DNA of 59,141 bases from a virus (lineage: Duplodnaviria; Caudoviricetes): IMG/VR virus record IMGVR_UViG_3300031851_000029, positions 1 to 59,141 of that record; one strand, 5' to 3'. The position numbers and the translations under genes were made by a program. The notes below the pieces were generated by a model. The model saw only the letters and a program-made list of their open reading frames with translations. It did not search any database and was not told the origin of the DNA. Below are positions 9,034-59,141 of this stretch, in pieces. How positions within the stretch are numbered: position 1 is the stretch's first letter; each line of letters begins with the position of its first letter.

Positions 9034-12000
9034 TTACCTTGGTCCATCTGGAAGTGTTGCTTTCCAGTCATTGAAGAATGACACCCTATGAGCCATTTTA
9101 TCTATAAAGCCTGATCTACCTTGATGTAATTCATCAAAAGCTGCCCACGAATGCTCTCTGTATCTTGAGTACTCCTCATTAAGTGTCGTAATACCATTTA
9201 TTGTATCTTCTGCAGAATTAGTAACTGCACCAAGAATACTACTAAACATTTCCGCTGGGCTCTTTAAAGTTAACCCAGCAACAATTGGTTTTCCATTTTT
9301 AAGTAATGGAATTACATTTACCGTCTCCTCTTCCATAGCTTTAGAAAAGAGCAGATTCATTCCAACCATCCATGCTGCCGAATTGGCAAGGTGCTTCCTA
9401 TTGTTCCATACTATGGTTCCTCCAGCCCCCGCTCCTGCAGCGCCCCCTAAGAAGCCCATCAATCTCTTGCCTCCGCTAAGCCATGGACTCAATGTTCTCG
9501 CTCCACCAAATACTAAAGCTGCACTTCCAAACACGGCTGCAAGGCCACTTGTAGTAGTTGTTCCAAATCTTGGCGCTATCATATCAATACCTGTAGCTTG
9601 ACCAAGATCGCTTTCTCGTAAAACATTTCTAAACTCATCTATTGGATTATCAGTACCAAAAGTTGCAGCGTACCTTTCTCTAAAATGCTCAATGTTTCGG
9701 ATATCATCTGCGCTCATGTTTTCATCAGTAAACCTATCTACAACAGCACTACTCCCACCAACTAAACGTGTAGCACCGATGTCATTATCTAACCGAGAAG
9801 CAATAGTCTTTGAATCACTATTCAGAGACTGGTAAGCCATTGCAAACAATTTGACCCCTTCTAGAACTGGCCAGCTTGATATTTCATTTGCATAGACGAG
9901 AGCATTTGGTTTTATTTCAGTTAAGAAACCTGTTTCGTGGCTAAACATGTGTATTACAGATTCAACTTCTACTGGTCCAGCCATATCGTTGTAATCATCC
10001 ATTAATATACAGACATCCCATGGACGAATTCTAGCATTACCTAAAATCATTATTTCACCCTTGTACATGCTTTTTAGCCCTGTCATAAGGGATCCTTGAC
10101 CATATCTAACTGCCATGCCATATCCGGTACAGTTTGGATATTGAACTGTTGCCATGTTAAGCATATAGTCGGGTATAGAACTGCTTGCTTGCATATCTAA
10201 ACTCTGCACTGTATTTGTTACAGACCCAGTTTCCGAATCCATTTTCAGGTACGAAACAAGTACATTGTTAACCACGCTAGTTTCGCTTGAAACTATACCG
10301 TTTGAAACAATATCTTGATCAGAGGAAAGTATGTGATACCTTCTGAATGGAACAAATCTTTGCTCCATTCCTGATAAGTATTCAGGTATGAGTTTCGTAA
10401 GCGCTGCTTGTTTCAACATGTTTTTGTGCTCAGTTCCTCCGCGAACAAGCACTGGTGGCGTAGGGGCGTTTGGTCCAGTTTGGCTTTCACGCAAACCTAT
10501 GTCTGCAAGTGCAGCCCAAGCCTCATCAGACATTCTTTCCGATTCTTCTGAACCGTAAGCTTCTTTAAGCTGAGCCTCCATGACAGAAACATCGATTTCA
10601 TCTTGTTCAATCATAGAGACAATGTAACTATGCAGCTTGTTGATTCTCGTAATAAAGTCTCTTGATCCCGGCTTGGACCAATACCTTTGGCTAGGTAAAC
10701 CAAAAAACATTGTGTATCTGAATTCATTTCCATATGGCCTTGCACCATAAATCCAACCAGGATGCCTTAAAGACATTTCTTCAAATGTATCGAAAATAGT
10801 TTGATTCACAAGCTTATATCTACAAGCTGTAGGCCTTACTCTTTTTTCAAGCATGTGAGGATCAGGCATTTCAAATGCCTTCTTCCACCAATCCCGAATG
10901 GTCGTGATTGTTGTCCCTGTAAAAGTTGCTGCAATTCCTGCAGCAAACTGCCTCGTCCACAGTGTCGTTTTTTCCCAGACTCCTTTTCTTTGCCAAAACC
11001 CAAGCGTCATGTACGAAGCAGGATTTGGAGGAAATAAGTTGTCGTCTGCTGGACTCAGTTTCAGTCTAGCTCTAACTCTTGCCATATCTTTTTTGTAAGA
11101 ACCAACCAGGCTACCATATCCCGACTTCATAAATCCCAGCAAGATGTCTAAACCCGCAGCACCGATTGCCATCGGAATAGCCATACGCAATACAGCACTT
11201 GGAGCTTTAATCAAAACATTTCCTACTGTTATTGCGCCAATATGCTTCAAAGGATTTGGAGAAGAAAGTAGCTTTCCCCAAGATGGAGTATTGCCGAAAC
11301 CTGGCCACCATACAGCTCTAGCTGTAAGCATATTCGTTTGCGCCGAAGTAACTGCAGCTCTAAGAGCTGGTCCGCTGGTACGAGATGTTATCAAAGGCAC
11401 AAGCGCTTTACCTGCTTGCCCTCCTTCGAGAACTAGTTGCTGCACAGCTTGTGCTCTAGCAAGGCTCCTACCTTTCAAGACACTAGCTGCTGGTGCGTTT
11501 ATGAAGGTAAGGATTTCGTCAGCGTTCGCTGCAATATCATCTATACTTGCTCCAAGCGGCCTTCCAACACTCATACCTCTAGACCCGTGCATTACTCCAG
11601 CCTTTACACCTCCCCCCGATCTGACTGTCCTGAAGAATGTTCCAACCCTAGTTGCTGCATTTACTCCAACGCCCCTTGTTGCTATCCTGCTGATGCCACT
11701 CAGCGTTGCCGCAATAGGTGCTCCTATAAGCCTCGAAACTGAAAAAGGTTTTGAAACTGCGGCTGATCCCTTAGCAGCTTGCCCAGCCGCCAATCTTGCA
11801 CCTGCAAACCTTATCATCACAACGCTACCTATCAATGCCCCGATTCCCGTCATTATTGGATGAGCTGTCATTGTATCTAAGAGCGAATTAACTACAGGCC
11901 AAGACCCTTGAAAGCCTTCCTTATGGTAAGGGTAGAAGTCTAAATCTGCATTCTTATCTTCACCGATTTGCCTTAAAGTGCCATACTCCCATCGACCAAA

Positions 12001-15000
12001 ATGAGCAACTTCTGGCTGCATCATCATTGCACCAAGCAATTGATGAGTTGTGTAATAAATCTTGTCGTGCCAGTCTGTGCTCCAATCGTTACCTTCAATA
12101 CCTTTGATTTTCTGAGTTAATTCAGTTCCAAAAGATTGGACAACTATATTGCAAAGATCTCCATTAGAGTTCCAAGACAAATCAACTATTCTGCCATTAA
12201 TTAAAACTTCCAACATATTTGGATCATTAGAGTAGCCAACTCTTAACTGAACATTTAATCCTGGACGAAGAACTATTGCTCCAAAAGGCTGCTCTTCTCC
12301 ACTATTGTGCATATGGTCATCACTTTCTGTAGTGATGCTTGGATCAGTATCCAACCCCTGTCTTTCTATTTCTTTTTGATTAAAATAATCCAAATCTACA
12401 GTAACATTTCTTTTTGTTCCATCTAGTGTTCCATTGATGTTTTGTAGAGTTATTTGAGCGGTATCTCCAGGATTTTTTCTAGTAGAATAAAAAGTAAATT
12501 CTTTTACCCCATTGAAAGAATAAAAATCATCCATGTTGAGCATTCTTGATTCATATTCATCTTCTTCAACAAAGAACAGCTTAAACGTAGGATATGCTCT
12601 TCTTACAGAAAGCTTATTTGATATAACATCACTAGCTGAAGAAGCCGCAAGCATCTGTAAGTTTTCTGGTTTATAGAAATTGTCGAATTCATTAAAAGCG
12701 CCAAGTCTTGTGTCGACAACAATATCTGCAGTTGCTTGAGCAGTTTCTTCTGTTACTACATTGCCCATATAGCCTTCTCTGCTACCCATCATTGCAGATA
12801 TAGAATCCATCTTAGTTACTAGCTCTTCGTAATTTTCGCGCTCTCCTGCCCATCCACTGATATTTAGAGTATTCCCATCATTTCCTGATAGTGGTGGTGG
12901 GTTGTCAATAATGGATTCACCAAGCTCTGTCTTTAAACTGCTAGTTGTTCCCGCTGGGGCTTGTGACTCATCTTCTGTTGCAGCTAAGATAAATGCCTCT
13001 CTAGTGAGAGCCTTTGCTCCAGCGGTCCCGCCACCTTTTGTAGTGGTTCCCGCTGAATATTGATGTTCAGCTGCTGCATTCTCTACCAAGACGCCTATAG
13101 CAGCTTGACTATCTGCTTGATAGTTAGCAAGTTGAGCCTCTTGACCCTCACCCTTTGCGCTGCCATAAAATGGATTTCCGGTAGGACCTGTGCTGACCCA
13201 AGCGCTGCTATTGTTTGGACCTACTGGTTTACCGTAAACCCTGCCTGCAGCAGCATCTTCACTATTCGTGCCCCCAGCCCACTCGTAAGTTGCATCGCTT
13301 CTCATCAAGTCTACTTCATCGCTAGCTTCTGGATGTGAAACTATTCTTGAAATTCTTTGCGTTACGTCAGAAGAATGATTGAATATCCCCAAGCCTCCAT
13401 CAGAATTAGGCTCGAGACCTTCTCTTTGCATTCTTTTGTGATGATGATAAGCGCTATGTACAACTGTACTAGTCTTTGCAAAGACTTCATCATAAATTGC
13501 ATCTTTTACTTCAAGGCTTGCATCTTCTGCTGCATTCCACATGTAGAAATCAGGCGAAACTGCATAATTGAATCTTGTAGTATAATAGGGATGATTTGGT
13601 AAATCTAAATCAGGGTAAGCAGGCATACCAGTATATTCATCTACAAGATCAGAAAAACTAGGTACTTCGATATTGTCTAAACCAAGTGAGACAATTAAGC
13701 CCTCATCACTTATAACTATATCTGCAACTTCTTTTAATATCTTCCTTAATTCTTGTAACTTTGCAGTTTCTCCTGCAATCGTACCTATAGAGGCAACATC
13801 GGGATCTGGAACTATACCTGCTTGAGTTTGCCCAATGTAGGAGTCTTCAGTAGGTGATTCGCCCTGAATGATTTCGTCGCCGTCAACCATTTCTACGGTT
13901 GCGCCAACCCCTCCGCCAGCTAAACCAGCAATTCCAATAGTGGCCATTTGTCCACTAATAGAACCAGCAGTTGCAAAAGCTGACCACGCCCCGCCAGCTG
14001 CCCCGGTCAAAGCAGCATCAGTTGGATCTGGAACTAATAGCCAACCCGCAATTGCTACAATAGTCAAAACTGTAGCCGTAGCCCCCATAGCAACTCCAGA
14101 GTAATTCGCTGCAGTAGACATTGCCTCGACCCATCGACTTGTCATAGGAGAGTTTGACAAGTACACAGGGCTAAAGAACCAATCATTAAAATAATCGAAT
14201 TCAAGTGCAGTTGGTACTCTTGTCATATAAAGCGCAGAGTTCCAGTCAGCAACCAGGGATGCTGCAAGCGTTGGAGTGAAGATGTCGAAAATTCCAGCTT
14301 CAATATTTTGATTGATGCTTATTACTTCGGACATGTAATTTTTTCTAATATTTTTAACTTGCTCCCTGTAAAGGGCCAAAGTTGAGTTTGCATTATCTTG
14401 ATTGCCATGAATTCCATCTCCTGAAAGAAGTAGCATACCGCCATCTATACTGCCCTCCCAGGCTTCCCCTGCGACACCCTTTATTGTCCCCATGAAGCCT
14501 TCTACATCGTCCCCTGCCATCCCTGCTGCTACGTGGACTATATAGCCTCTATCATCGTCACTCAGCTCTATTGACATATCAGAAACTATTCTATCTGCTA
14601 AACCACCCATGGCTGCATCTTTGGCATCCATAGTCAAACCCAAAGTCGAAGCCAAACTTCTATAACTATCGTAGCCAGCGTTGTTGGCTATAGCTTCTGT
14701 AAGAAATGCTTCTACATAAGTGACATATCCAGTCCATTGCCGCCCAGCGACATACTCTTCTGGCATGTTGAAAAGCCTTTGCATCACTTCTTGTCTAGGC
14801 AGACTGTTAGGCAAAGTATCCTCTCTTAACGAGAGTCTTGCAGATCTAAGAGTATTATAGACCGTATAGTATAAGCCTTGAAGCTTTGCCATAGTCATGT
14901 TGTCAGCCCCATCACCAGACAATCTTGCTTCTAGTTGAGGATGTATGTTGTAAAAATCAGTTGTATCAACAATGAACTTATCAGTTCCCGTATCAACTAC

Positions 15001-18000
15001 GTTGGAAAAGCTTCCTAGATTTACAACCGTTGGAATCACAGAAACGCTTGGATCTATACCATGAGCCTCCGAGGTGCCAAAAACAGAACCTTCGCTTCTT
15101 GCATCTATTGTACTCAGTATACTGTTGGTGCTTAATATGTAAAAGTCGCTTTCACCTGAAGAGTCGCCTGATTCGTATATTCGATCTATGGAGCCTCCTC
15201 CCTGCCCTGCACCATCTTCGTCAATAAACCTATCTCCAACATAAACTGTAGGGCCAGACCAACCACCCCCATAGCTACCAGATGGAGCGAGTTCGGTTTG
15301 AGATTGTCCGGTTACATGTCCAGAAGCTATCATTTGTTGCCAAAATGCTCCATCTCCTGATTCCGTTACAATTGCCTTTCTGTCAGCGGTAGATTGCGTC
15401 CCAGCCATAAAGCGCGTATGGATTATACGATCTGTATCTATCATAGCTAACGACTTTATACTTTCTATATTTTCGTAGCCGAAGTCCTCAGGAGTAAGCT
15501 CGTGTTCTTCAAGAAGCGCAGCTATATCATCTTGTTCATAGTATCTGTCTGATATTTGATTAAGAAGTAAGTTGCTTACACCTTCTCCAGTCAAATTTAA
15601 GCTTAGTATGCATTTGAGAATCGCTTCTCTAACCTTGTCTAAAGGTTCTTTTGATGGACCAGCAAAATCTAAAGCTTCCGTATTGTATGGATTCGTTTCA
15701 GACAATTCAAAAACCATAGAGCTCATACCAGCATAACCCTCAATAGTATTAGTAGAGGTTCTATGAATTACAGTTCTTTTCTTAAGGAATTCTTGTGCAC
15801 TTTCTTCTGGGATGACAAAATCATTCACTTTATAAGTGCCCAGCAACCTGGTAATAAAGGTTCTTGTAGCAACAGCGTGTCCGTCTGGAATTGCTCTAAA
15901 TTTTCTAGCATTAGATTGAAGCTTTTGCCTCATATATTCAAGCAATGCGCCTTCTTCAGAAAGGTTGTCGTTTCTAGAATTATCTGCGCTAGTTGAGAAT
16001 TCAAAAACATAGCTTGGCTCCATTGAGCCCAGGTGCTGATGCGTTGGGAATTCGTGACCAAGTATAGGTATGTTAGCAACAATATGAGTTAGAGACCCTA
16101 CTACGTTTGTCATGACTAAATTGTCTGGAGACTTTACTGCAAAGATTGAATCCCTTCCATGCTCTTGAAACCCGACTGAACTTCTTCCGTTATACATGCT
16201 CTGAGTGACTGGCATATTGTAATCTGGCTGAATTCCTGGAACAAAGTTTGAATTTTGTAGTAAGAAACTATAGTTTACAGTTCTTTTGAGAATATTTGTA
16301 GCTTCAGTTGTATCTTCATAAGGTACCCATCCATCCCTATACATATCCATAAAATAATTATTTATTTCTTCTTTTTCTTCATCTGTTAAAGTTGTCCCAC
16401 TGCTAGCAGCTGGAGGTGAAGTTACTATTGCCGGATCTGGTATTCCTGTTAAAGACTCTTCGTCTACCTCTTCTTCGCAAACCTCAGCGTCGTCATAACC
16501 TGGATCAGCAGATTCAGCTGGCAGCATGTTTATGTATCTTGGATGATTTCCTGCATACTGGAATGTACCGTCTTCCGCTTGTTGGAGATGAAGCGCTAAC
16601 TCTGGGTCAATTATGCTACCATTTACATAAACTTCGTAGTGTAAGTGTGGGTTTGTAGAGGTTCCAGTATTCCCTACATAGCCGATAATATCTCCTCTTT
16701 CGACAGTAACCCTTGTGAATCCATTTCCAGTAGCTGCTCTACTAGTGCCCTGAATTCTTGCATTGTCTACTATTCCACCAAAAGCTTCACCGAAATTATC
16801 TAAGTGTAAGAAGTTGAAAGAGTATTCGATTAACGTTCCGTCATCACCTTCAACACTCCCTTCAAGGCGTAACTGGTTACCTCCATAGGAAGTTATTCCG
16901 TATTGCTGCTTAGCGTAATCAAGAGCAAGCTGTTTTCTAGCAGTGCTTTTGCCATCAAATTCATCAGCGCTCGTCCCTTGTGCATTCACCGCAAAGGCGT
17001 CTAATAAGTAGTCGTATCCAAGGTAACGCCCATCATAGTTCCAACTTGGTGGTGGAGCTAAAACGTTTACTGGCTGAATTGATCTTACGGTCAAGGTACC
17101 GCTTATTGGAGCGTAAATAGGGGTACCTATTCCTCCAGTGATATCAACACCTTTATGCGAATTGCTCTTGCTAGTGCCTACTCTGTATCCAAAGTCCCCG
17201 CTTACATTCTTCGAATCTACAACTGGATGAAAAACATACTCTGCTTCGTTAGCTATTCCTGGAGTTGTAAAGTCTGTACCACTGCGATCAGTTACTCTTT
17301 GACTAGTTTCGGTAGCACTGTTATGGTCCCATGCTTCTACATAGCTAAAGTCTACTTCTGGATTAGACGTAGAGCCTTGACTTACTGATGCAGTTCCAGC
17401 TCGTGATTGTCTTGCTACTTCCGATATAGTTCTAGCAGCATCATGAAGCTTTTGACGTTCTGGTGTGACTGCTTCCTCTCTACGATCTACTCTCATCTGT
17501 ATGATGCGCGGGTCTACTTGATAAGAAGTATACTCAGTCCAAACGAAGTCGATACCAAGAGTATGTTTCATTACCTGGTCTATTATTTCATTTCTATGAG
17601 TTTTCAAAGTGCGTGGGCCATGAAGAGCATCAACGATTAGATAATTTTCAAGACCTGGTGCTTCGTCATCAGTGAAACCTTCTGGAAATCTGCCTGAAGT
17701 GTATCTTATCCATTCGCCTGCAAAACCACCCATAATATCTGCTGCATCTACATCGAAGCATTCGTAAAGATTTTTTTGCTGTAAATAATTTGAGTAACGT
17801 ATATAGATATTCGAAAGGTTAGGTACCACTGCAGCAGCTCGAGACATTACAGACGGTCTTGCAGCAAGATCAAAAGTCGTTCCCGAATGAGTTAGCAGCA
17901 TATCTTCAAAAGTTCTTCCACCAACAATGTTTAATGTCCTTTCAGAAACTACATCGTATGTTCTTATTTCTGCAGGAGTATCAGCGATTTCACCAACAAA

Positions 18001-18564
18001 AGTTGGCCTACGTTGCATTTGAGCACCAAAAGTATCTATAGTTCTCTTAATGCTGCCACCCGTAGATGTTTCAAACGATTTAGTTGCCCATTCATTTCTA
18101 TATAGCCAATTTGAAGAGTATGGAAAATAGTTAAACCATCTCAAGTCCAAATCTAGAACCCAGGTGCCAGGACTTCCTTTAAAGTTTTGAATAGTCAAAT
18201 TTGTTAAAGTGAAAGCCATATTCTGGTAGCGTGGCCACGTAGGACATATACTGTCTCTCAAGTATGCATTTTGTACGTAACAAAAAGGGCTTTCCCTGAA
18301 TTGGCATATGAGCCTGTGCATATGTAAAAATAGATCTGGAGTAAAAACTATTCTTACCGATACCTGAACAACACCATGCCCAGAAGGTATTTTTGTAGAA
18401 ACTTTAGTACGTAAAGTTTTCCACTGCCACATCATGTCTTCTTTTCTAATAGAAATATTAGTAGGTGGAATTAAAAGATCTACATCGTTAATTTGAAATA
18501 TAACTTCAGTTGCATCTCTTTCCGAGTCTACAGTAGACGAGACTATTGATTCTTTTGTTGGCAT
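9034..18564 (-). CDS. Giant baseplate hub / tail-tip protein with M23 peptidoglycan endopeptidase (3176 aa)
   Basis: M23 zinc motifs HKGVD (17143-17157) and GNTGTSTNPHLHYEV (HLH at 16639-16647). Hub-like motifs LRPGLNVQLRVGYSNDP and YKGEIMILGNARIRPWD. Several Gly/Ala hydrophobic segments. Confidence 0.75.
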   Translation of the reverse strand: MPTKESIVSSTVDSERDATEVIFQINDVDLLIPPTNISIRKEDMMWQWKTLRTKVSTKIPSGHGVVQVSVRIVFTPDLFLHMHRLICQFRESPFCYVQNAYLRDSICPTWPRYQNMAFTLTNLTIQNFKGSPGTWVLDLDLRWFNYFPYSSNWLYRNEWATKSFETSTGGSIKRTIDTFGAQMQRRPTFVGEIADTPAEIRTYDVVSERTLNIVGGRTFEDMLLTHSGTTFDLAARPSVMSRAAAVVPNLSNIYIRYSNYLQQKNLYECFDVDAADIMGGFAGEWIRYTSGRFPEGFTDDEAPGLENYLIVDALHGPRTLKTHRNEIIDQVMKHTLGIDFVWTEYTSYQVDPRIIQMRVDRREEAVTPERQKLHDAARTISEVARQSRAGTASVSQGSTSNPEVDFSYVEAWDHNSATETSQRVTDRSGTDFTTPGIANEAEYVFHPVVDSKNVSGDFGYRVGTSKSNSHKGVDITGGIGTPIYAPISGTLTVRSIQPVNVLAPPPSWNYDGRYLGYDYLLDAFAVNAQGTSADEFDGKSTARKQLALDYAKQQYGITSYGGNQLRLEGSVEGDDGTLIEYSFNFLHLDNFGEAFGGIVDNARIQGTSRAATGNGFTRVTVERGDIIGYVGNTGTSTNPHLHYEVYVNGSIIDPELALHLQQAEDGTFQYAGNHPRYINMLPAESADPGYDDAEVCEEEVDEESLTGIPDPAIVTSPPAASSGTTLTDEEKEEINNYFMDMYRDGWVPYEDTTEATNILKRTVNYSFLLQNSNFVPGIQPDYNMPVTQSMYNGRSSVGFQEHGRDSIFAVKSPDNLVMTNVVGSLTHIVANIPILGHEFPTHQHLGSMEPSYVFEFSTSADNSRNDNLSEEGALLEYMRQKLQSNARKFRAIPDGHAVATRTFITRLLGTYKVNDFVIPEESAQEFLKKRTVIHRTSTNTIEGYAGMSSMVFELSETNPYNTEALDFAGPSKEPLDKVREAILKCILSLNLTGEGVSNLLLNQISDRYYEQDDIAALLEEHELTPEDFGYENIESIKSLAMIDTDRIIHTRFMAGTQSTADRKAIVTESGDGAFWQQMIASGHVTGQSQTELAPSGSYGGGWSGPTVYVGDRFIDEDGAGQGGGSIDRIYESGDSSGESDFYILSTNSILSTIDARSEGSVFGTSEAHGIDPSVSVIPTVVNLGSFSNVVDTGTDKFIVDTTDFYNIHPQLEARLSGDGADNMTMAKLQGLYYTVYNTLRSARLSLREDTLPNSLPRQEVMQRLFNMPEEYVAGRQWTGYVTYVEAFLTEAIANNAGYDSYRSLASTLGLTMDAKDAAMGGLADRIVSDMSIELSDDDRGYIVHVAAGMAGDDVEGFMGTIKGVAGEAWEGSIDGGMLLLSGDGIHGNQDNANSTLALYREQVKNIRKNYMSEVISINQNIEAGIFDIFTPTLAASLVADWNSALYMTRVPTALEFDYFNDWFFSPVYLSNSPMTSRWVEAMSTAANYSGVAMGATATVLTIVAIAGWLLVPDPTDAALTGAAGGAWSAFATAGSISGQMATIGIAGLAGGGVGATVEMVDGDEIIQGESPTEDSYIGQTQAGIVPDPDVASIGTIAGETAKLQELRKILKEVADIVISDEGLIVSLGLDNIEVPSFSDLVDEYTGMPAYPDLDLPNHPYYTTRFNYAVSPDFYMWNAAEDASLEVKDAIYDEVFAKTSTVVHSAYHHHKRMQREGLEPNSDGGLGIFNHSSDVTQRISRIVSHPEASDEVDLMRSDATYEWAGGTNSEDAAAGRVYGKPVGPNNSSAWVSTGPTGNPFYGSAKGEGQEAQLANYQADSQAAIGVLVENAAAEHQYSAGTTTKGGGTAGAKALTREAFILAATEDESQAPAGTTSSLKTELGESIIDNPPPLSGNDGNTLNISGWAGERENYEELVTKMDSISAMMGSREGYMGNVVTEETAQATADIVVDTRLGAFNEFDNFYKPENLQMLAASSASDVISNKLSVRRAYPTFKLFFVEEDEYESRMLNMDDFYSFNGVKEFTFYSTRKNPGDTAQITLQNINGTLDGTKRNVTVDLDYFNQKEIERQGLDTDPSITTESDDHMHNSGEEQPFGAIVLRPGLNVQLRVGYSNDPNMLEVLINGRIVDLSWNSNGDLCNIVVQSFGTELTQKIKGIEGNDWSTDWHDKIYYTTHQLLGAMMMQPEVAHFGRWEYGTLRQIGEDKNADLDFYPYHKEGFQGSWPVVNSLLDTMTAHPIMTGIGALIGSVVMIRFAGARLAAGQAAKGSAAVSKPFSVSRLIGAPIAATLSGISRIATRGVGVNAATRVGTFFRTVRSGGGVKAGVMHGSRGMSVGRPLGASIDDIAANADEILTFINAPAASVLKGRSLARAQAVQQLVLEGGQAGKALVPLITSRTSGPALRAAVTSAQTNMLTARAVWWPGFGNTPSWGKLLSSPNPLKHIGAITVGNVLIKAPSAVLRMAIPMAIGAAGLDILLGFMKSGYGSLVGSYKKDMARVRARLKLSPADDNLFPPNPASYMTLGFWQRKGVWEKTTLWTRQFAAGIAATFTGTTITTIRDWWKKAFEMPDPHMLEKRVRPTACRYKLVNQTIFDTFEEMSLRHPGWIYGARPYGNEFRYTMFFGLPSQRYWSKPGSRDFITRINKLHSYIVSMIEQDEIDVSVMEAQLKEAYGSEESERMSDEAWAALADIGLRESQTGPNAPTPPVLVRGGTEHKNMLKQAALTKLIPEYLSGMEQRFVPFRRYHILSSDQDIVSNGIVSSETSVVNNVLVSYLKMDSETGSVTNTVQSLDMQASSSIPDYMLNMATVQYPNCTGYGMAVRYGQGSLMTGLKSMYKGEIMILGNARIRPWDVCILMDDYNDMAGPVEVESVIHMFSHETGFLTEIKPNALVYANEISSWPVLEGVKLFAMAYQSLNSDSKTIASRLDNDIGATRLVGGSSAVVDRFTDENMSADDIRNIEHFRERYAATFGTDNPIDEFRNVLRESDLGQATGIDMIAPRFGTTTTSGLAAVFGSAALVFGGARTLSPWLSGGKRLMGFLGGAAGAGAGGTIVWNNRKHLANSAAWMVGMNLLFSKAMEEETVNVIPLLKNGKPIVAGLTLKSPAEMFSSILGAVTNSAEDTINGITTLNEEYSRYREHSWAAFDELHQGRSGFIDKMAHRVSFFNDWKATLPDGPR

Positions 18565-57052: not shown

Positions 57053-57161
57053 ATCCTAATTAGGCAGAATGAAAATATATACTCTATTTATACCTATTAT
57101 ATATTATAGAATAGAATTGAACGGTCCTAACGAGCCCACCCCGGTCTACGCATGACTAACT

Positions 57162-57175
57162 CCTTTTTTTAATGG
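57162..57175 (+). promoter_or_regulatory. Repeated element copy 1 (putative phage promoter)
   Basis: CCTTTTTTTAATGG with no terminator hairpin before it. Followed by the hairpin GTCATC-ATAA-GATGGC. Confidence 0.55.
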
Positions 57176-57222
57176 TCATCATAAGATGGCTGTAATTGAT
57201 AGCAACACACAGGAGTACTGCT

Positions 57223-57546
57223 ATGCAAGCAAATAACGTAATCCAGCTTCCTCTCGTTCCCAATCCCGAAAGTGTCGAGGGTTTCTGGCTCAAGGTCTAC
57301 ATGGTTCTTACCAAAATGGTCGCTGATCCAGAGACCAAAGTCAAAGTCCGCTCTAACGAGATCCAGTTCTTCCTTAACGGCCTGCGGGTCGATCTGCGGA
57401 AGTTCCACATCTACGTCAAGAACGAGGGGAGCGAGATGCTGTCTGTACCTAACCCTAGCTGCATGCAAGCAGCATTCGGGCAGGCAATCCAAGACGCTAA
57501 CAAGGGTAGCATCGAAGACATCTTCGACGACTTCCTTGGTCTTTAG
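57223..57546 (+). CDS. Early-region hypothetical protein (107 aa)
   Basis: AGGAG SD at 57211 and ATG at 57223. C/G-ending codons. Followed by a terminator. Confidence 0.8.
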   Translation: MQANNVIQLPLVPNPESVEGFWLKVYMVLTKMVADPETKVKVRSNEIQFFLNGLRVDLRKFHIYVKNEGSEMLSVPNPSCMQAAFGQAIQDANKGSIEDIFDDFLGL

Positions 57547-57554
57547 ATAGGATT

Positions 57555-57588
57555 AGGTGCTCATCGCAAGATGGGCACCTTTTTCTTT
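57555..57588 (+). terminator. Intrinsic terminator
   Basis: AGGTGCTCATC-GCAA-GATGGGCACCT followed by TTTTCTTT. Confidence 0.85.
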
Positions 57589-57593
57589 AATGG
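57578..57593 (+). promoter_or_regulatory. Repeated element copy 2 (putative phage promoter)
   Basis: CCTTTTTCTTTAATGG overlapping the terminator tail. Confidence 0.55.
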
Positions 57594-57640
57594 TCTATAG
57601 CGGGCAATCAAGCCTACTATCTATACACTTTGGAGGTGTC

Positions 57641-58057
57641 ATGACCACATTCGTAAAGACAATCGCAGCCATTCTGTTAACCCTGGTGGCGGTAGGTATC
57701 ATCGACTTCAACATGAGAGCGGAAGAGGAGAGCACATGCTCATTCTCATCTGCTGAGTGGTGTGGGATGATGTACCAGGACAGATTAGCTGATGCTCATC
57801 AAGAGCTGGCTAGCTGTCAGATGCAGCATCCACAAGGTCCTCATGCCAACCACGATGAGGGCTGCATCCATAGCCTCTGTGATGAGAGTACGGAAGCATT
57901 CACTCAGTGGGTGTTTCCAGCCAACTCATACCTGCTCAGGCGAGTAGAGCTCTCTGACAAGGACTATGAGCTTCAGGTATTGCTTGCCGAGCACATCGGT
58001 GGCACACCCGAGCAGTGGCCTATGCCAGTCAAAACAGTAGCAGAGATGGGCTACTAG
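57641..58057 (+). CDS. Membrane-anchored or secreted Cys/His-rich early protein (138 aa)
   Basis: GGAGG SD at 57632 and ATG at 57641. N-terminal hydrophobic helix IAAILLTLVAVGII. Confidence 0.8.
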   Translation: MTTFVKTIAAILLTLVAVGIIDFNMRAEEESTCSFSSAEWCGMMYQDRLADAHQELASCQMQHPQGPHANHDEGCIHSLCDESTEAFTQWVFPANSYLLRRVELSDKDYELQVLLAEHIGGTPEQWPMPVKTVAEMGY

Positions 58058-58074
58058 CAGAAGATAGGGTAAGT

Positions 58075-58114
58075 CCTATTCAGTAGAAATACTGGGTAGG
58101 CACCTTTTTCTTTT
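58075..58114 (+). terminator. Intrinsic terminator
   Basis: CCTATTCAGTA-GAAA-TACTGGGTAGG followed by CACCTTTTTCTTTT. Confidence 0.75.
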
Positions 58115-58119
58115 AATGG
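58103..58119 (+). promoter_or_regulatory. Repeated element copy 3 (putative phage promoter)
   Basis: CCTTTTTCTTTTAATGG followed by the perfect hairpin ATGGCA-ATTT-TGCCAT. Confidence 0.55.
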
Positions 58120-58145
58120 CAATTTTGCCATACATGGAGTCAAAA

Positions 58146-58400
58146 ATGACTGGCCCTGACGCACATGCTCATTCTCTGAAGTTTCTTGAGATTGCATGCA
58201 GTTTGGATTCGAACGATGTGGAAGGTTGGACTAACCTTCTTCAGGAGGCTGGAGATTCAATGTCTCTTCACAATCACACCAACGGGCACTGGTTCGGCGG
58301 GTATGCCAGCCTGAATGGTAGCTGGATTGTGCATTGTACGTATTGGGTCTACCCTATCCGCATTGACTGCGGAGAAGAAGTTTCAAAGCGACTTGAGTGA
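58146..58400 (+). CDS. Early-region hypothetical protein (84 aa)
   Basis: GGAG SD at 58136 and ATG at 58146. Followed by a terminator. Confidence 0.7.
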   Translation: MTGPDAHAHSLKFLEIACSLDSNDVEGWTNLLQEAGDSMSLHNHTNGHWFGGYASLNGSWIVHCTYWVYPIRIDCGEEVSKRLE

Positions 58401-58413
58401 AAGCAAAAAGACT

Positions 58414-58450
58414 AAGGTGCTCATCTTCGGGTGAGTGCCTTTTCTTTTTT
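58414..58450 (+). terminator. Intrinsic terminator
   Basis: AAGGTGCTCATC-TTCG-GGTGAGTGCCTT followed by TTCTTTTTT. The left arm matches the terminator at 57555. Confidence 0.85.
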
Positions 58451-58455
58451 AATGG
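58438..58455 (+). promoter_or_regulatory. Repeated element copy 4 (putative phage promoter)
   Basis: CCTTTTCTTTTTTAATGG. Confidence 0.55.
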
Positions 58456-58850
58456 CGCTATTAGTGACTCTATAGCGTAAGTCAGATCCTTCAAGTGGTG
58501 TTGGGGACGAGGGCGTGTCGATAACTGCAGGTTATTGTAAGTGTGATGAGTCTTAAGTCACACAAGCAGTAATGGTTATCGGCATTAAGGGGGATTGTGT
58601 ACCTGCCATGTATCCCCCACCTATCTCAGGTTATTAACCTATCTCAGGTTAAAGTCTAAGCTTGTTGGAACATACCGAAACGTAATGCTACCTGTACTGA
58701 TTCAAACTCAGTATTTAAGGTAGACGATCTGGTGCTGATAGTTAGCGTAAAAACCAGTAAGGTATTTGGCCACACCAAGAACAAAGAAGTAGCTTCTTTC
58801 GAGGAGCTATATGTGGCAACATTCGCATCATTATGATGCAACATCGCCCT
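58452..58850 (+). ncRNA. Large structured RNA of unknown class (~400 nt; stand-alone ncRNA or structured leader)
   Basis: No credible long ORF. At least ten nested helices found by hand, with many G-U pairs that work only on the plus strand, a UUCG tetraloop, a long-range closing helix and two possible pseudoknots. Confidence 0.7.
58619..58651 (+). repeat. Tandem 15-nt direct repeat, each copy a mini-hairpin
   Basis: ACCTATCTCAGGTTA at 58619-58633 and 58637-58651. Confidence 0.85.
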
Positions 58851-58855
58851 AGAGG

Positions 58856-58880
58856 CAACAACAACAACAACAACAAGGAG
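58856..58880 (+). promoter_or_regulatory. (CAA)7 unstructured translational enhancer plus SD
   Basis: CAA x7 (58856-58876) runs into AAGGAG, 7 nt before ATG 58888. Confidence 0.65.
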
Positions 58881-58887
58881 TAACTAC

Positions 58888-59141
58888 ATGTTTACACATG
58901 AAGTTCAAATCGGAGCAATCGATCTGGTTGCTCAAAACGTGGAAGGACTCAATAGTGAGCTCTTCTACATCATGGTGGCAAATGTCACCTTCTTCGTACT
59001 CATCTTTGCCGTTGAGTACATCACCCTGAAGGTACAGGCACGTCGTCTGAACACCTTCATCAACAACAACAACAACGTCCAGGAGGACACCATGGCAAAC
59101 GCCAACAATCAAGATCAAGACAACAACACTGAAACCACCAC
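58888..59141 (+). CDS. Early-region protein with an N-terminal TM helix and an internal second start (partial, runs off the window end)
   Basis: Not in the ORF track. Reads MFTHEVQIGAIDLVAQNVEGLNSELFYIMVANVTFFVLIFAVEYITLKVQARRLNTFINNNNNVQEDTMANANNQDQDNNTETT. Second SD AGGAGG at 59081 with an in-frame ATG at 59092. Confidence 0.75.
   Translation, partial: MFTHEVQIGAIDLVAQNVEGLNSELFYIMVANVTFFVLIFAVEYITLKVQARRLNTFINNNNNVQEDTMANANNQDQDNNTETT

What the first reader, a model, noticed from the sequence alone, without database searches (positions are those of the whole stretch)
58452..58850. Unrecognised ~400-nt multi-domain structured RNA
Seen helices: CGCTAT/ATAGCG (58456/58472); closing AGGGCG/CGCCCT (58510/58845); long arm TGTCGATAACT/GGTTATCGGCA (58516/58574), TTATTGT/GCAGTAA and GTGTGAT/GTCACAC; GGGGGAT/ATCCCCC (58589/58612); TGTTG-GA-ACATA with TATGT-GG-CAACA (58663/58810). 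The last encloses CTACCT/AGGTAG, GTACTGA-TTCAAAC-TCAGTAT (T-loop-like), CTGGT/ACCAG and TAGCTTCT-TTCG-AGGAGCTA. GCATCA/TGATGC lies at 58825. All helices nest consistently, and the G-U pairs point to the plus strand. I do not see the hallmarks of tmRNA, RNase P, or group I/II introns. Inference: a new large phage ncRNA, ribozyme or regulatory leader.
Basis: partly seen in the sequence, partly recalled or inferred. Interest (0 to 1): 0.85.

Follow-up and report, generated by a model that had tools for sequence, protein, structure and literature searches.

The report
New structured leader RNA in marine phage
A roughly 430-base untranslated stretch in front of an early gene of an uncultured marine phage folds into a conserved RNA with many helices and a pseudoknot; it matches no described RNA family and its function is unknown.

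Summary
Window 58401-58887 has no conserved ORF. It folds much better than shuffles on the + strand (z -4.45; - strand -2.25) and matches none of 4227 Rfam families. I found four further distinct homologues: one viral contig and three metagenome sequences. In the 5' domain 17 of 45 pairs change on both sides, against 8.6 in shuffles and 1-3 when partners are slid. The "T-loop" is not conserved. The closing helix and the 58663/58810 helix are not secured; a rival closure exists. The RNA begins at a reiterated unit-start motif just after a terminator and runs without a terminator into the Shine-Dalgarno site of a small membrane-protein gene. Neighbouring units have leaders of only 30-50 nt. My best reading is a new family of cis-acting structured 5' leader RNA; the mechanism is unproven. 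Predicted SD occlusion was no better than with shuffled leaders. Rivals are a processed trans-acting RNA, an antiterminator and a ribozyme. The family is narrow, limited to one phage clade.

The parts
58414..58441 (+). Intrinsic terminator of the upstream 94-aa gene, followed by a T run
   Evidence: 12-pair stem plus T tail. Each homologue also has a GC-rich hairpin plus T run at this place.
58447..58455 (+). Unit-start motif TTTTAATGG; probable promoter or transcript start of the RNA-plus-gene unit
   Evidence: All 3 window matches are on the + strand within 57167-58455. A fourth TTTAATGG is seen at 57581. In the homologous contig 7 of 10 matches lie on one strand within 3.8 kb, against 1 and 1 for the controls. 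The motif is invariant in 5 of 5 homologues.
58455..58478 (+). P1, hairpin at the presumed 5' end (58455-58461 pairs with 58472-58478)
   Evidence: The third pair is U-A in 3 sequences, A-U in 1 and G-C in 1. A metagenome variant, C58476T, gives G-U.
58479..58492 (+). Conserved single-stranded linker AAGUCAGAUCCU
   Evidence: Invariant except for one position in 5 sequences.
58488..58506 (+). P2 hairpin with invariant loop GUGGUG (58495-58500)
   Evidence: 6 pairs, 100% of cells paired. The apical pair is A-U, U-A or U-G.
58506..58515 (+). Invariant junction GACGAG followed by GGCG; the 5' strand of two mutually exclusive closing helices
   Evidence: AGGGCG:CGCCCU has P 0.92 in the window. GACGAG(R):(Y)CUUGUC has P 0.81-0.89 in two homologues, 0.34 in one and 0 in two.
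58516..58584 (+). P4, long irregular arm (outer 58516-58526 with 58574-58584; inner 58531-58547 with 58557-58573)
   Evidence: In the inner arm 8 of 12 pairs change on both sides and 100% of cells pair. The outer arm pairs at 10-11 of 11 positions in 4 of 5 sequences after a one-base register shift in two rows.
58527..58532 (+). P4 bulge GCAGGU, the 5' half of the pseudoknot
   Evidence: 6 pairs, 100% of cells paired, 2 pairs changed on both sides (L258 reads GCAGAC with GUCUGC).
58589..58618 (+). P5 hairpin. Its loop (58600-58606) holds ACCUGC (58601-58606), the 3' half of the pseudoknot
58620..58652 (+). P5b region. The window has two tandem copies of CCTATCTCAGGTTA; homologues have one copy plus a 7-bp hairpin
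58661..58674 (+).
   Evidence: unresolved.
58688..58723 (+).
   Evidence: P7 is invariant in 5 of 5. The enclosed hairpin differs in sequence, length and loop in every homologue.
58729..58757 (+). P8 (CUGGU with ACCAG) with inner hairpin P8a and the conserved internal loop GUAAAA
   Evidence: 3 of 9 pairs change on both sides and 100% of cells pair.
58758..58789 (+). Partly conserved A-rich stretch ending in CCAAGAACAAAGAAG
58790..58809 (+). P9 hairpin with a UUCG loop. Homologues carry an 8-bp hairpin of unrelated sequence here
58810..58850 (+).
   Evidence: P10 is weak or absent in homologues. For the closure.
58856..58876 (+). Unstructured CAA-repeat spacer running into the Shine-Dalgarno site
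   Evidence: CA/A-rich spacers are also seen in L002, L275 and L007.
58875..58890 (+). Shine-Dalgarno AAGGAG and the ATG of the downstream gene
   Evidence: GGAG lies 6-10 nt before the ATG in 5 of 5 homologues.
58888..59141 (+). Start of the downstream gene (predicted membrane helix, then an Asn/Asp-rich part); it runs off the window
   Evidence: It is homologous to the 342-aa protein of L002 (E 1e-5). No Pfam or PHROG family matches.

Best explanation
Window 58455 to about 58855 is a member of a previously undescribed family of structured RNA. It forms the long 5' leader of one early-type transcription unit in a clade of uncultured marine tailed phages.

Transcription is inferred to start at the reiterated motif TTTTAATGG, directly after the terminator of the preceding gene. 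The RNA begins with hairpin P1.

It then folds into a 5' domain made of P2 with an invariant GUGGUG loop, a long arm P4, hairpin P5 and hairpin P5b. The bulge of P4 is tied to the loop of P5 by a 6-bp pseudoknot. A 3' domain follows (P7, P8/P8a, P9).

A CA-rich unstructured spacer links the fold to the Shine-Dalgarno site of a gene for a small membrane-anchored protein. A strong terminator follows that gene in the homologues.

I infer that the fold acts in cis on this mRNA. It would control translation initiation or stability, probably through a bound factor or ligand, since its loops and junctions are invariant.

Shown: conservation, strand, helices, pseudoknot and genomic position. Inferred: the transcript start, action in cis and the mode of control.
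For: - Non-coding: every frame carries 4-15 stops, and the longest ORFs lie in different columns in the five homologues.
- Folding: z -4.45 on the + strand (0 of 100 shuffles), -2.25 on the - strand. The homologue L002 gives z -4.51.
- Island of conservation: between the window and L002, the two genes just upstream (57595-58444) and the downstream gene have no nucleotide similarity except a 37-nt patch, yet the RNA aligns.
- Covariation, 5' domain including the pseudoknot: 45 pairs, 90.2% of cells paired, 17 pairs changed on both sides. Shuffles give 8.6 +/- 1.9 (0 of 500 reach it) and slid partners give 1-3.
- Covariation, P1+P7+P8+P8a: 22 pairs, 97.3% of cells paired, 4 changed on both sides against 0-1 when slid.
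- Pseudoknot: GCAGGU:ACCUGC becomes GCAGAC:GUCUGC in L258.
- Leader position: the unit-start motif occurs only at the heads of the + strand units. The other three units have leaders of 30-50 nt.
- No terminator-like site lies between the RNA and the ATG in the window, L002 or L275. L258 has only two weak ones.
- A strong terminator follows the gene in L002, L258 and L275.
- GGAG lies 6-10 nt before the ATG in 5 of 5 homologues.
- Relatives L007 and L004 carry unrelated long non-coding stretches (about 0.7 and about 1.3 kb) at the same place before a gene of the same architecture. For 781 nt of L004, z is -9.47.
Against: - There are no expression data: no RNA run holds the stretch. Transcript ends are therefore inferred.
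- The unit-start motif has no sigma-70 -35 box, and the promoter scan did not flag it.
- Predicted pairing of the SD site is not informative. It is 0.54-1.00 in the five leaders but 0.63-0.73 on average with 20 shuffled leaders each (2-13 of 20 shuffles reach the observed value), and the partner differs between homologues.
- Only five distinct sequences are known. Two of them are close to each other, so the shuffle statistics overstate independence.
- The alignment used for one search was fitted to the model.
- The long-range closure is unresolved.
- Invariant loops and a pseudoknot fit a trans-acting RNA or a ribozyme equally well.
- Similarity of the downstream protein to L007's is weak (E 4e-4 over 37 aa) and to L004's is not significant.
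Confidence: 0.5

Rival explanations
1. A stable trans-acting non-coding RNA, cut out of the leader by host RNases. It would work as a scaffold, decoy or multimer during host takeover, in the manner proposed for large ornate RNAs. The downstream gene would merely share its promoter.
For: Loops and junctions are invariant while stems vary, and there is a tertiary pseudoknot. The spacer between the fold and the SD site is variable, A/CA-rich and unstructured, so it is a plausible cleavage zone. The predicted SD occlusion is no better than chance. The 6-bp bulge-loop pairing could equally form between molecules.
Against: No terminator or conserved 3' end sits between the RNA and the gene. The RNA is always linked to the same gene in 5 of 5 homologues. 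Relatives keep a long leader at this gene, but not this sequence.
Confidence: 0.25
2. A cis-acting RNA that modifies RNA polymerase or the elongation complex (processive antitermination of the HK022 put or EAR type), so that transcription passes downstream terminators.
For: The RNA sits immediately after the presumed start of a unit, in a region dense with terminators.
Against: The unit looks monocistronic. It ends at a strong terminator followed by a new unit-start motif. Known antiterminator RNAs are several-fold smaller (recalled, not checked here). No homology to them was reported by Rfam.
Confidence: 0.08
3. A self-cleaving or otherwise catalytic RNA (ribozyme) embedded in the leader.
For: The size, the multi-helix junctions, the pseudoknot and the strictly conserved unpaired nucleotides are typical of catalytic RNAs.
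Against: No match to any ribozyme or intron family in Rfam 15. No exon-like flanks or interrupted gene. Nothing here tests chemistry.
Confidence: 0.07
4. A DNA-level element (replication origin, recombination hotspot or cassette boundary) whose inverted repeats only look like RNA helices.
For: The window has a 14-nt tandem duplication. Mosaic joints fall at the terminator/motif boundary: variant X8 and the swapped upstream genes.
Against: By my tally, 32 of 225 pair cells are G-U, which would be A-C mismatches on the other strand or in DNA cruciforms. The - strand folds worse. The duplication is absent from the four homologues. Compensatory changes extend over about 300 nt of irregular helices.
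Confidence: 0.03
5. Chance structure in a fast-evolving spacer with no function.
For: The family is very small, and two of the five sequences are close to each other.
Against: z is -4.45 and -4.51 in two sequences about 72-75% identical in column terms. There are 17 doubly changed pairs against 1-3 in slid controls. Blocks of 15-21 nt are invariant amid unalignable flanks.
Confidence: 0.02

Closest known systems
Riboswitch-type and protein-operator 5' leaders (for example long-range kissing-loop riboswitches, or the T4 gene 32 pseudoknot operator noted in PMC10690425)
   Same: It lies between the transcript start and the SD site of one gene. Stems are variable, junctions are invariant, and a pseudoknot ties two helices together.
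   Different: No Rfam family matches. It is about 400 nt, several times the usual aptamer size. No conserved expression platform was found. The ligand or protein is unknown. The downstream gene has no known function.
Large ornate non-coding RNAs (GOLLD, ROOL, raiA, OLE)
   Same: Large size, many helices, phage association for some of them, and unknown function.
   Different: Their Rfam models gave no hit here or in the homologues. This RNA is tightly linked to one downstream gene and is known from a single phage clade. Multimer formation is untested.
phi29 pRNA
   Same: A phage-encoded structured RNA whose loop-loop complementarity covaries (recalled, not checked here).
   Different: pRNA is much shorter, is a separate transcript and belongs to a different phage group. 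No sequence or model match was seen. Nothing links this RNA to packaging.
PeSL cassettes of T4-type phages (PMC2839356; abstract and passages read). This comparison concerns the flanking punctuation only.
   Same: Reiterated stem-loop terminators joined to a promoter-like AT-rich motif, flanking small orphan genes in a plastic region. Mosaic joints fall at these cassettes.
   Different: PeSLs carry clear sigma-70 -35 and -10 boxes. Here only a TTTAAT-like element is seen, with no -35. The phage is unrelated to the T4 type (terminase at most 30% identical to any isolate).

Membership tests
Any Rfam 15 family (including GOLLD, ROOL, raiA, OLE, HEARO, tmRNA, RNase P, 6S, group I/II introns, known riboswitches and small ribozymes) | Covariance-model score at or above the family's gathering threshold | tested here: not met
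   0 matches over the whole window. The permissive scan of 58000-59141 gave only snR71 (18.7 bits against 60; E 5.8; - strand) and a lncRNA fragment (E 7.4). The permissive scan of six related loci gave 3 matches, all far below threshold and none in the RNA.
tRNA / tmRNA | ARAGORN-detectable cloverleaf or tag-peptide structure | tested here: not met
   0 genes in the window. The 'T-loop-like' loop is not conserved.
Conserved structured RNA (generic) | Folding energy better than shuffles on one strand | tested here: met
   z -4.45 (+ strand) against -2.25 (- strand). The homologue gives z -4.51.
Conserved structured RNA (generic) | Helices kept by compensatory changes beyond the controls | tested here: met
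   17 of 45 pairs changed on both sides, against 8.6 +/- 1.9 in shuffles and 1-3 when slid. 4 of 22 against 0-1 when slid. Only 5 sequences.
Conserved structured RNA (generic) | No conserved reading frame | tested here: met
Cis-regulatory 5' leader / riboswitch | Lies between the transcript start and the start codon of the regulated gene, with no terminator of its own | tested here: inconclusive
   The position fits in 5 of 5 homologues. The transcript start is inferred from a motif, not mapped.
Cis-regulatory 5' leader / riboswitch | Conserved expression platform (SD-sequestering or terminator/antiterminator alternative) | tested here: not met
   SD pairing is no higher than with shuffled leaders and the partners differ. 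No conserved terminator. Two mutually exclusive closing helices exist, but their meaning is open.
Cis-regulatory 5' leader / riboswitch | Ligand- or protein-dependent change of structure and expression | not testable with these tools
   Needs in-line or SHAPE probing and reporter assays.
Ribozyme | Catalytic activity of the transcript | not testable with these tools
   Needs an in vitro assay.
PeSL-type regulatory cassette (flanking motif only) | Stem-loop terminator joined to a promoter, reiterated between small genes | tested here: met
   Terminators at 57555-57580, 58075-58100 and 58414-58441, each followed by a T run plus TTTAATGG. The motif is clustered on one strand.
PeSL-type regulatory cassette (flanking motif only) | Sigma-70-like -35 and -10 boxes | tested here: not met
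   None of the four sites was flagged by the promoter scan. By eye, no -35 hexamer lies 16-18 nt upstream of TTTAAT.

The most novel reading that the evidence does not exclude
This clade of marine phages places a hypervariable class of very large, highly structured RNAs (about 0.43 kb here, about 0.7 kb in L007, about 1.3 kb in L004) in front of one membrane-protein gene. The window's version, with its invariant loops and covarying bulge-loop pseudoknot, would then be an autonomous functional RNA of a new class rather than a passive leader. It could be a ligand- or protein-sensing device far larger than known riboswitches, a ribozyme, or a self-assembling RNA whose 6-bp loop-bulge pairing forms between molecules.
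Probability: 0.2. Interest if true: 0.85.

Novelty: new variant of a known kind. Interest (0 to 1): 0.6.

Why it matters
Structured RNAs above about 400 nt with conserved tertiary contacts are rare. Where their function has been solved, most turned out to be ribozymes, ribonucleoprotein cores or self-assembling particles.

This one has clear covariation, a pseudoknot and a defined genomic role: it is the leader of one early gene in phages that have no cultured relative. It can be tested directly by in vitro transcription, chemical probing and reporter fusions, without needing the unknown host.

It also marks a locus where related phages carry even larger structured leaders. That points to an unexplored layer of RNA-based control in marine phage early regions.

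The weight of the finding is limited by the small family (five sequences, one clade) and by the absence of any expression or functional data.

Tried and rejected
**Homologue searches that added nothing**
- blastn and megablast against 50,697 phage records gave no match.
- The 166-aa neighbouring protein gave no related viral locus.
An nhmmer screen of all 245 loci held at that point found only L002 and L059, which are the same contig.
- Three more specific viral patterns found only that contig.
- The metagenome pattern gave 80 stretches, of which 74 were chance.
- The genome contigs pattern gave 47 stretches and 0 true hits.
- Covariance models R1 and R2 found nothing in the nine other related viral loci, nor in the whole records of five of them. 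Only L004-L007 had the full upstream flank.

**Other negative or uninformative results**
- The 16-mer shared by L004 and L007 hit nine viral stretches. Four are the L004-L007 contigs. The other five are coding sequence and matched by chance.
- RNA evidence: no RNA holder is listed among 13 runs. Laying four DNA-contig runs gave only near-identical pieces and one mosaic variant. Neither says anything about expression.
- SD occlusion was tested as the mechanism and gave no support. Pairing was not above shuffled leaders.
- The N4-like virion RNA polymerase context is rejected. The 3176-aa protein matches endolysin and peptidase families, not a polymerase.
- CM realignment did not fix a one-base register offset of P4a in L002 and L288. 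This lowers that helix to 67% paired. A script allowing shifts of up to 2 bases gives 10 of 11 pairs; that is a fitted result.

**Literature**
- listing and abstract starts only; nothing matched this RNA.
- listing only.
- PMC10690425: passages read. Its IMG/VR candidates are 29-151 nt long and had to occur in at least 3 regions, so this RNA is unlikely to be listed whole.
- PMC2839356: abstract and passages read.
- My statement that the family is undescribed rests only on Rfam 15 and these searches.

**Tool status**

Full report
**Context.** The window is a 59,141-base IMG/VR virus record judged about 45% complete. Positions 1-56922 carry a - strand block of virion and packaging genes. These include the terminase, portal and major head protein, and giant proteins of 3176, 1777 and 1434 aa. 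The terminase is at most 30% identical to that of any isolated phage, so the host is unknown. Public runs that hold the stretch are labelled marine or viral metagenomes. From about 57160 a + strand cluster of small genes with no known family begins. The finding lies in the fourth intergenic space of that cluster.

**The observation.** Window 58401-58887 has no ORF of 70 aa or more. In the five homologues every frame carries 4-15 stops, and the longest ORFs fall in different places. The + strand of 58452-58850 folds to -129.6 kcal/mol (z -4.45; 0 of 100 shuffles). The - strand gives z -2.25. Rfam 15 gives no match at gathering thresholds anywhere in the window. Near the region the permissive scan gives only two hits with E>5. 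ARAGORN finds no tRNA or tmRNA.

**Homologues.**
- A conserved 264-aa protein about 2 kb away retrieved ten related viral loci. Only L002, from a 108-kb contig, has an alignable counterpart.
- An exact 21-nt block from the most conserved part found 80 metagenome stretches. Six are true by covariance model. They collapse to L002's sequence plus three new ones: L288 (identical to L324), L275 and L258.
- Further viral and genome scans added nothing.
- The family therefore stands at five distinct sequences, with the window the most divergent. Mean column identity over the five is 75%.
- Between the window and L002, the two upstream genes and the downstream gene have no nucleotide similarity apart from one 37-nt patch. 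The RNA is an island of conservation.

**Structure.** On the model-based alignment of the 5' domain I counted a structure that includes a pseudoknot.
- There are 45 pairs and 90.2% of cells pair.
- 17 pairs change on both sides, against 8.6 +/- 1.9 in column shuffles (0 of 500 reach it). Sliding the partners by 1-3 columns leaves 1-3. The slid control is the fairer one for related sequences.
- The inner long arm has 8 of 12 pairs doubly changed with no unpaired cell.
- P2 keeps an invariant GUGGUG loop while its apical pair is A-U, U-A or U-G.
- P5 changes at both ends.
- The outer long arm scores only 67% because two rows sit one base out of register. Allowing a shift gives 10-11 of 11 pairs in four of five sequences (a fitted result).

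**The pseudoknot.** The P4 bulge GCAGGU (58527-58532) pairs with ACCUGC in the P5 loop (58601-58606). In L258 the pairing reads GCAGAC with GUCUGC, which is two compensated positions. L288 and L275 show the U-G intermediate.

**Other helices.** On the MAFFT alignment, P1, P7, P8 and P8a give 22 pairs, 97.3% of cells paired and 4 doubly changed pairs, against 0-1 when slid. P7 is invariant. By my tally, G-U pairs make up 32 of 225 cells in the 5' domain, which fixes the + strand.

- The hairpin with the 'T-loop' has a different stem and loop in each homologue.
- P9 is replaced by an unrelated 8-bp hairpin, and P10 is weak or missing.
- The outer closing helix has pairing probability 0.92 in the window but about 0 elsewhere.
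- In L002 and L288 the invariant GACGAG pairs instead with the invariant CUUGUC (P 0.81-0.89).
Both closures stay open; they may even be alternative states.

**Anatomy of the locus.**
- TTTTAATGG occurs three times in the window. All three are on the + strand between 57167 and 58455. A fourth TTTAATGG lies at 57581.
- Each stands at the head of a gene unit and is followed by a hairpin. Three of the four come directly after an intrinsic terminator.
- In L002's contig 7 of 10 matches lie on one strand within 3.8 kb, while the reversed-pattern control gives 1 and 1. There the RNA plus its 342-aa gene fill the space between two consecutive motifs.
- A strong terminator follows the gene in L002, L258 and L275.
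- Leaders of the other three window units are 30-50 nt. This one is about 433 nt.
- No terminator-like site separates the RNA from the ATG in the window, L002 or L275. L258 has two weak ones.
- A CAA-repeat or A-rich spacer leads to a GGAG 6-10 nt before the ATG in all five.
- The arrangement of terminator plus AT-rich motif between orphan genes resembles the PeSL cassettes of T4-type phages (PMC2839356, passages read). No -35 box is present, however. Mosaic joints fall at this boundary.

**Relatives.** L007 has 729 non-coding bases at the same place, ending in a CA-rich spacer and an SD site before an ATG that opens with the same first residues. Its z-score is only -2.6, against -2.24 on the other strand. 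L004 has about 1.3 kb between a unit-start-like motif and an SD site plus ATG. For 781 nt of it, z is -9.47. Neither aligns with the window RNA or is hit by the models. The downstream proteins share the architecture, but similarity is weak (L007, E 4e-4) or not significant (L004).

**Mechanism.** The position argues for a cis-acting leader. I tested the simplest mechanism, occlusion of the SD site. The SD is predicted paired in all five (0.54-1.00). Leaders shuffled 20 times each give 0.63-0.73 on average, and the partners differ between homologues. That result is therefore no evidence for occlusion. The invariant loops, junctions and pseudoknot suggest recognition of a ligand or protein, or an autonomous activity. 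I rank the cis-regulatory leader first (0.5), then a processed trans-acting RNA (0.25), an antiterminator (0.08), a ribozyme (0.07), a DNA element (0.03) and chance (0.02).

**Novelty.** There is no Rfam 15 family, and nothing in the papers I could search. A 2023 survey of IMG/VR lists candidates of only 29-151 nt that occur in at least three regions (PMC10690425, passages read). I file the RNA as a new family within the known kind 'structured phage leader or non-coding RNA'. It is unusual for its size and for the covarying bulge-loop pseudoknot. Interest is moderate to high but capped by the narrow distribution and the lack of functional data.

Noticed in passing
window 57160-57190, 57555-57600, 58075-58135, 58414-58478: A reiterated cassette sits at the head of each + strand unit: a GC-rich terminator hairpin (absent at the first site), a T run, TTTAATGG and then a short hairpin. 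It resembles PeSL cassettes of T4-type phages but has no -35 box. It is probably a promoter for a phage-specific or modified polymerase.
   Followed up: partly
L004 1092-2430 (- strand): About 1.3 kb lacks any convincing ORF between a unit-start-like motif (TTTAACGG plus hairpin) and an SD site plus ATG. For 781 nt of it, z is -9.47, with many GAAA-type loops. It has no Rfam match and may be a very large structured RNA in its own right.
   Followed up: partly
L007 2872-3600 (- strand): A 729-nt non-coding stretch sits at the same position and ends in a CA-rich spacer plus SD site. It folds only modestly better than shuffles (z -2.6). It shares an exact 16-mer with L004's leader, though at a different relative position.
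   Followed up: partly
window 59062-59095: Inside the downstream ORF, a 37-nt patch is conserved at nucleotide level between the window and L002 (89%). It holds AGGAGG (59082-59087) and an in-frame ATG (59092) within a small hairpin. This suggests a second, internal translation start giving a shorter product without the membrane helix.
   Followed up: no
window 58856-58876 and 59061-59076: CAA repeats occur twice. One copy forms the untranslated spacer before the SD site, and the other lies inside the ORF, where it encodes a run of Asn. L007's CA-rich spacer gave a weak CrcZ-like Rfam hit (19.4 bits against 95). Hfq/Crc-type A-rich motifs are a possible lead.
   Followed up: no
window 58620-58651: There is a tandem duplication of the 14-mer CCTATCTCAGGTTA, 4 nt apart. 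It is specific to the window; the four homologues have one copy followed by a 7-bp hairpin.
   Followed up: yes
window 58445-58668 (run X8): A metagenome contig joins an L258-type upstream terminator to a window-type RNA 5' part. It carries 3 substitutions or indels, one of which (C58476T) turns a G-C pair of P1 into G-U. This is evidence of recombination at the cassette boundary.
   Followed up: partly
window 9034-18564 (- strand): A 3176-aa protein matches endolysin and metallo-endopeptidase families. It is followed by proteins of 1777 and 1434 aa with no family. These are probably giant virion or ejection proteins.
   Followed up: no
L002 1931-1960 (- strand), L258 5164-5193, L275 2536-2565: A nearly identical 13-bp GC-rich terminator follows the downstream gene in three homologues, although the gene itself diverges.
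   Followed up: no
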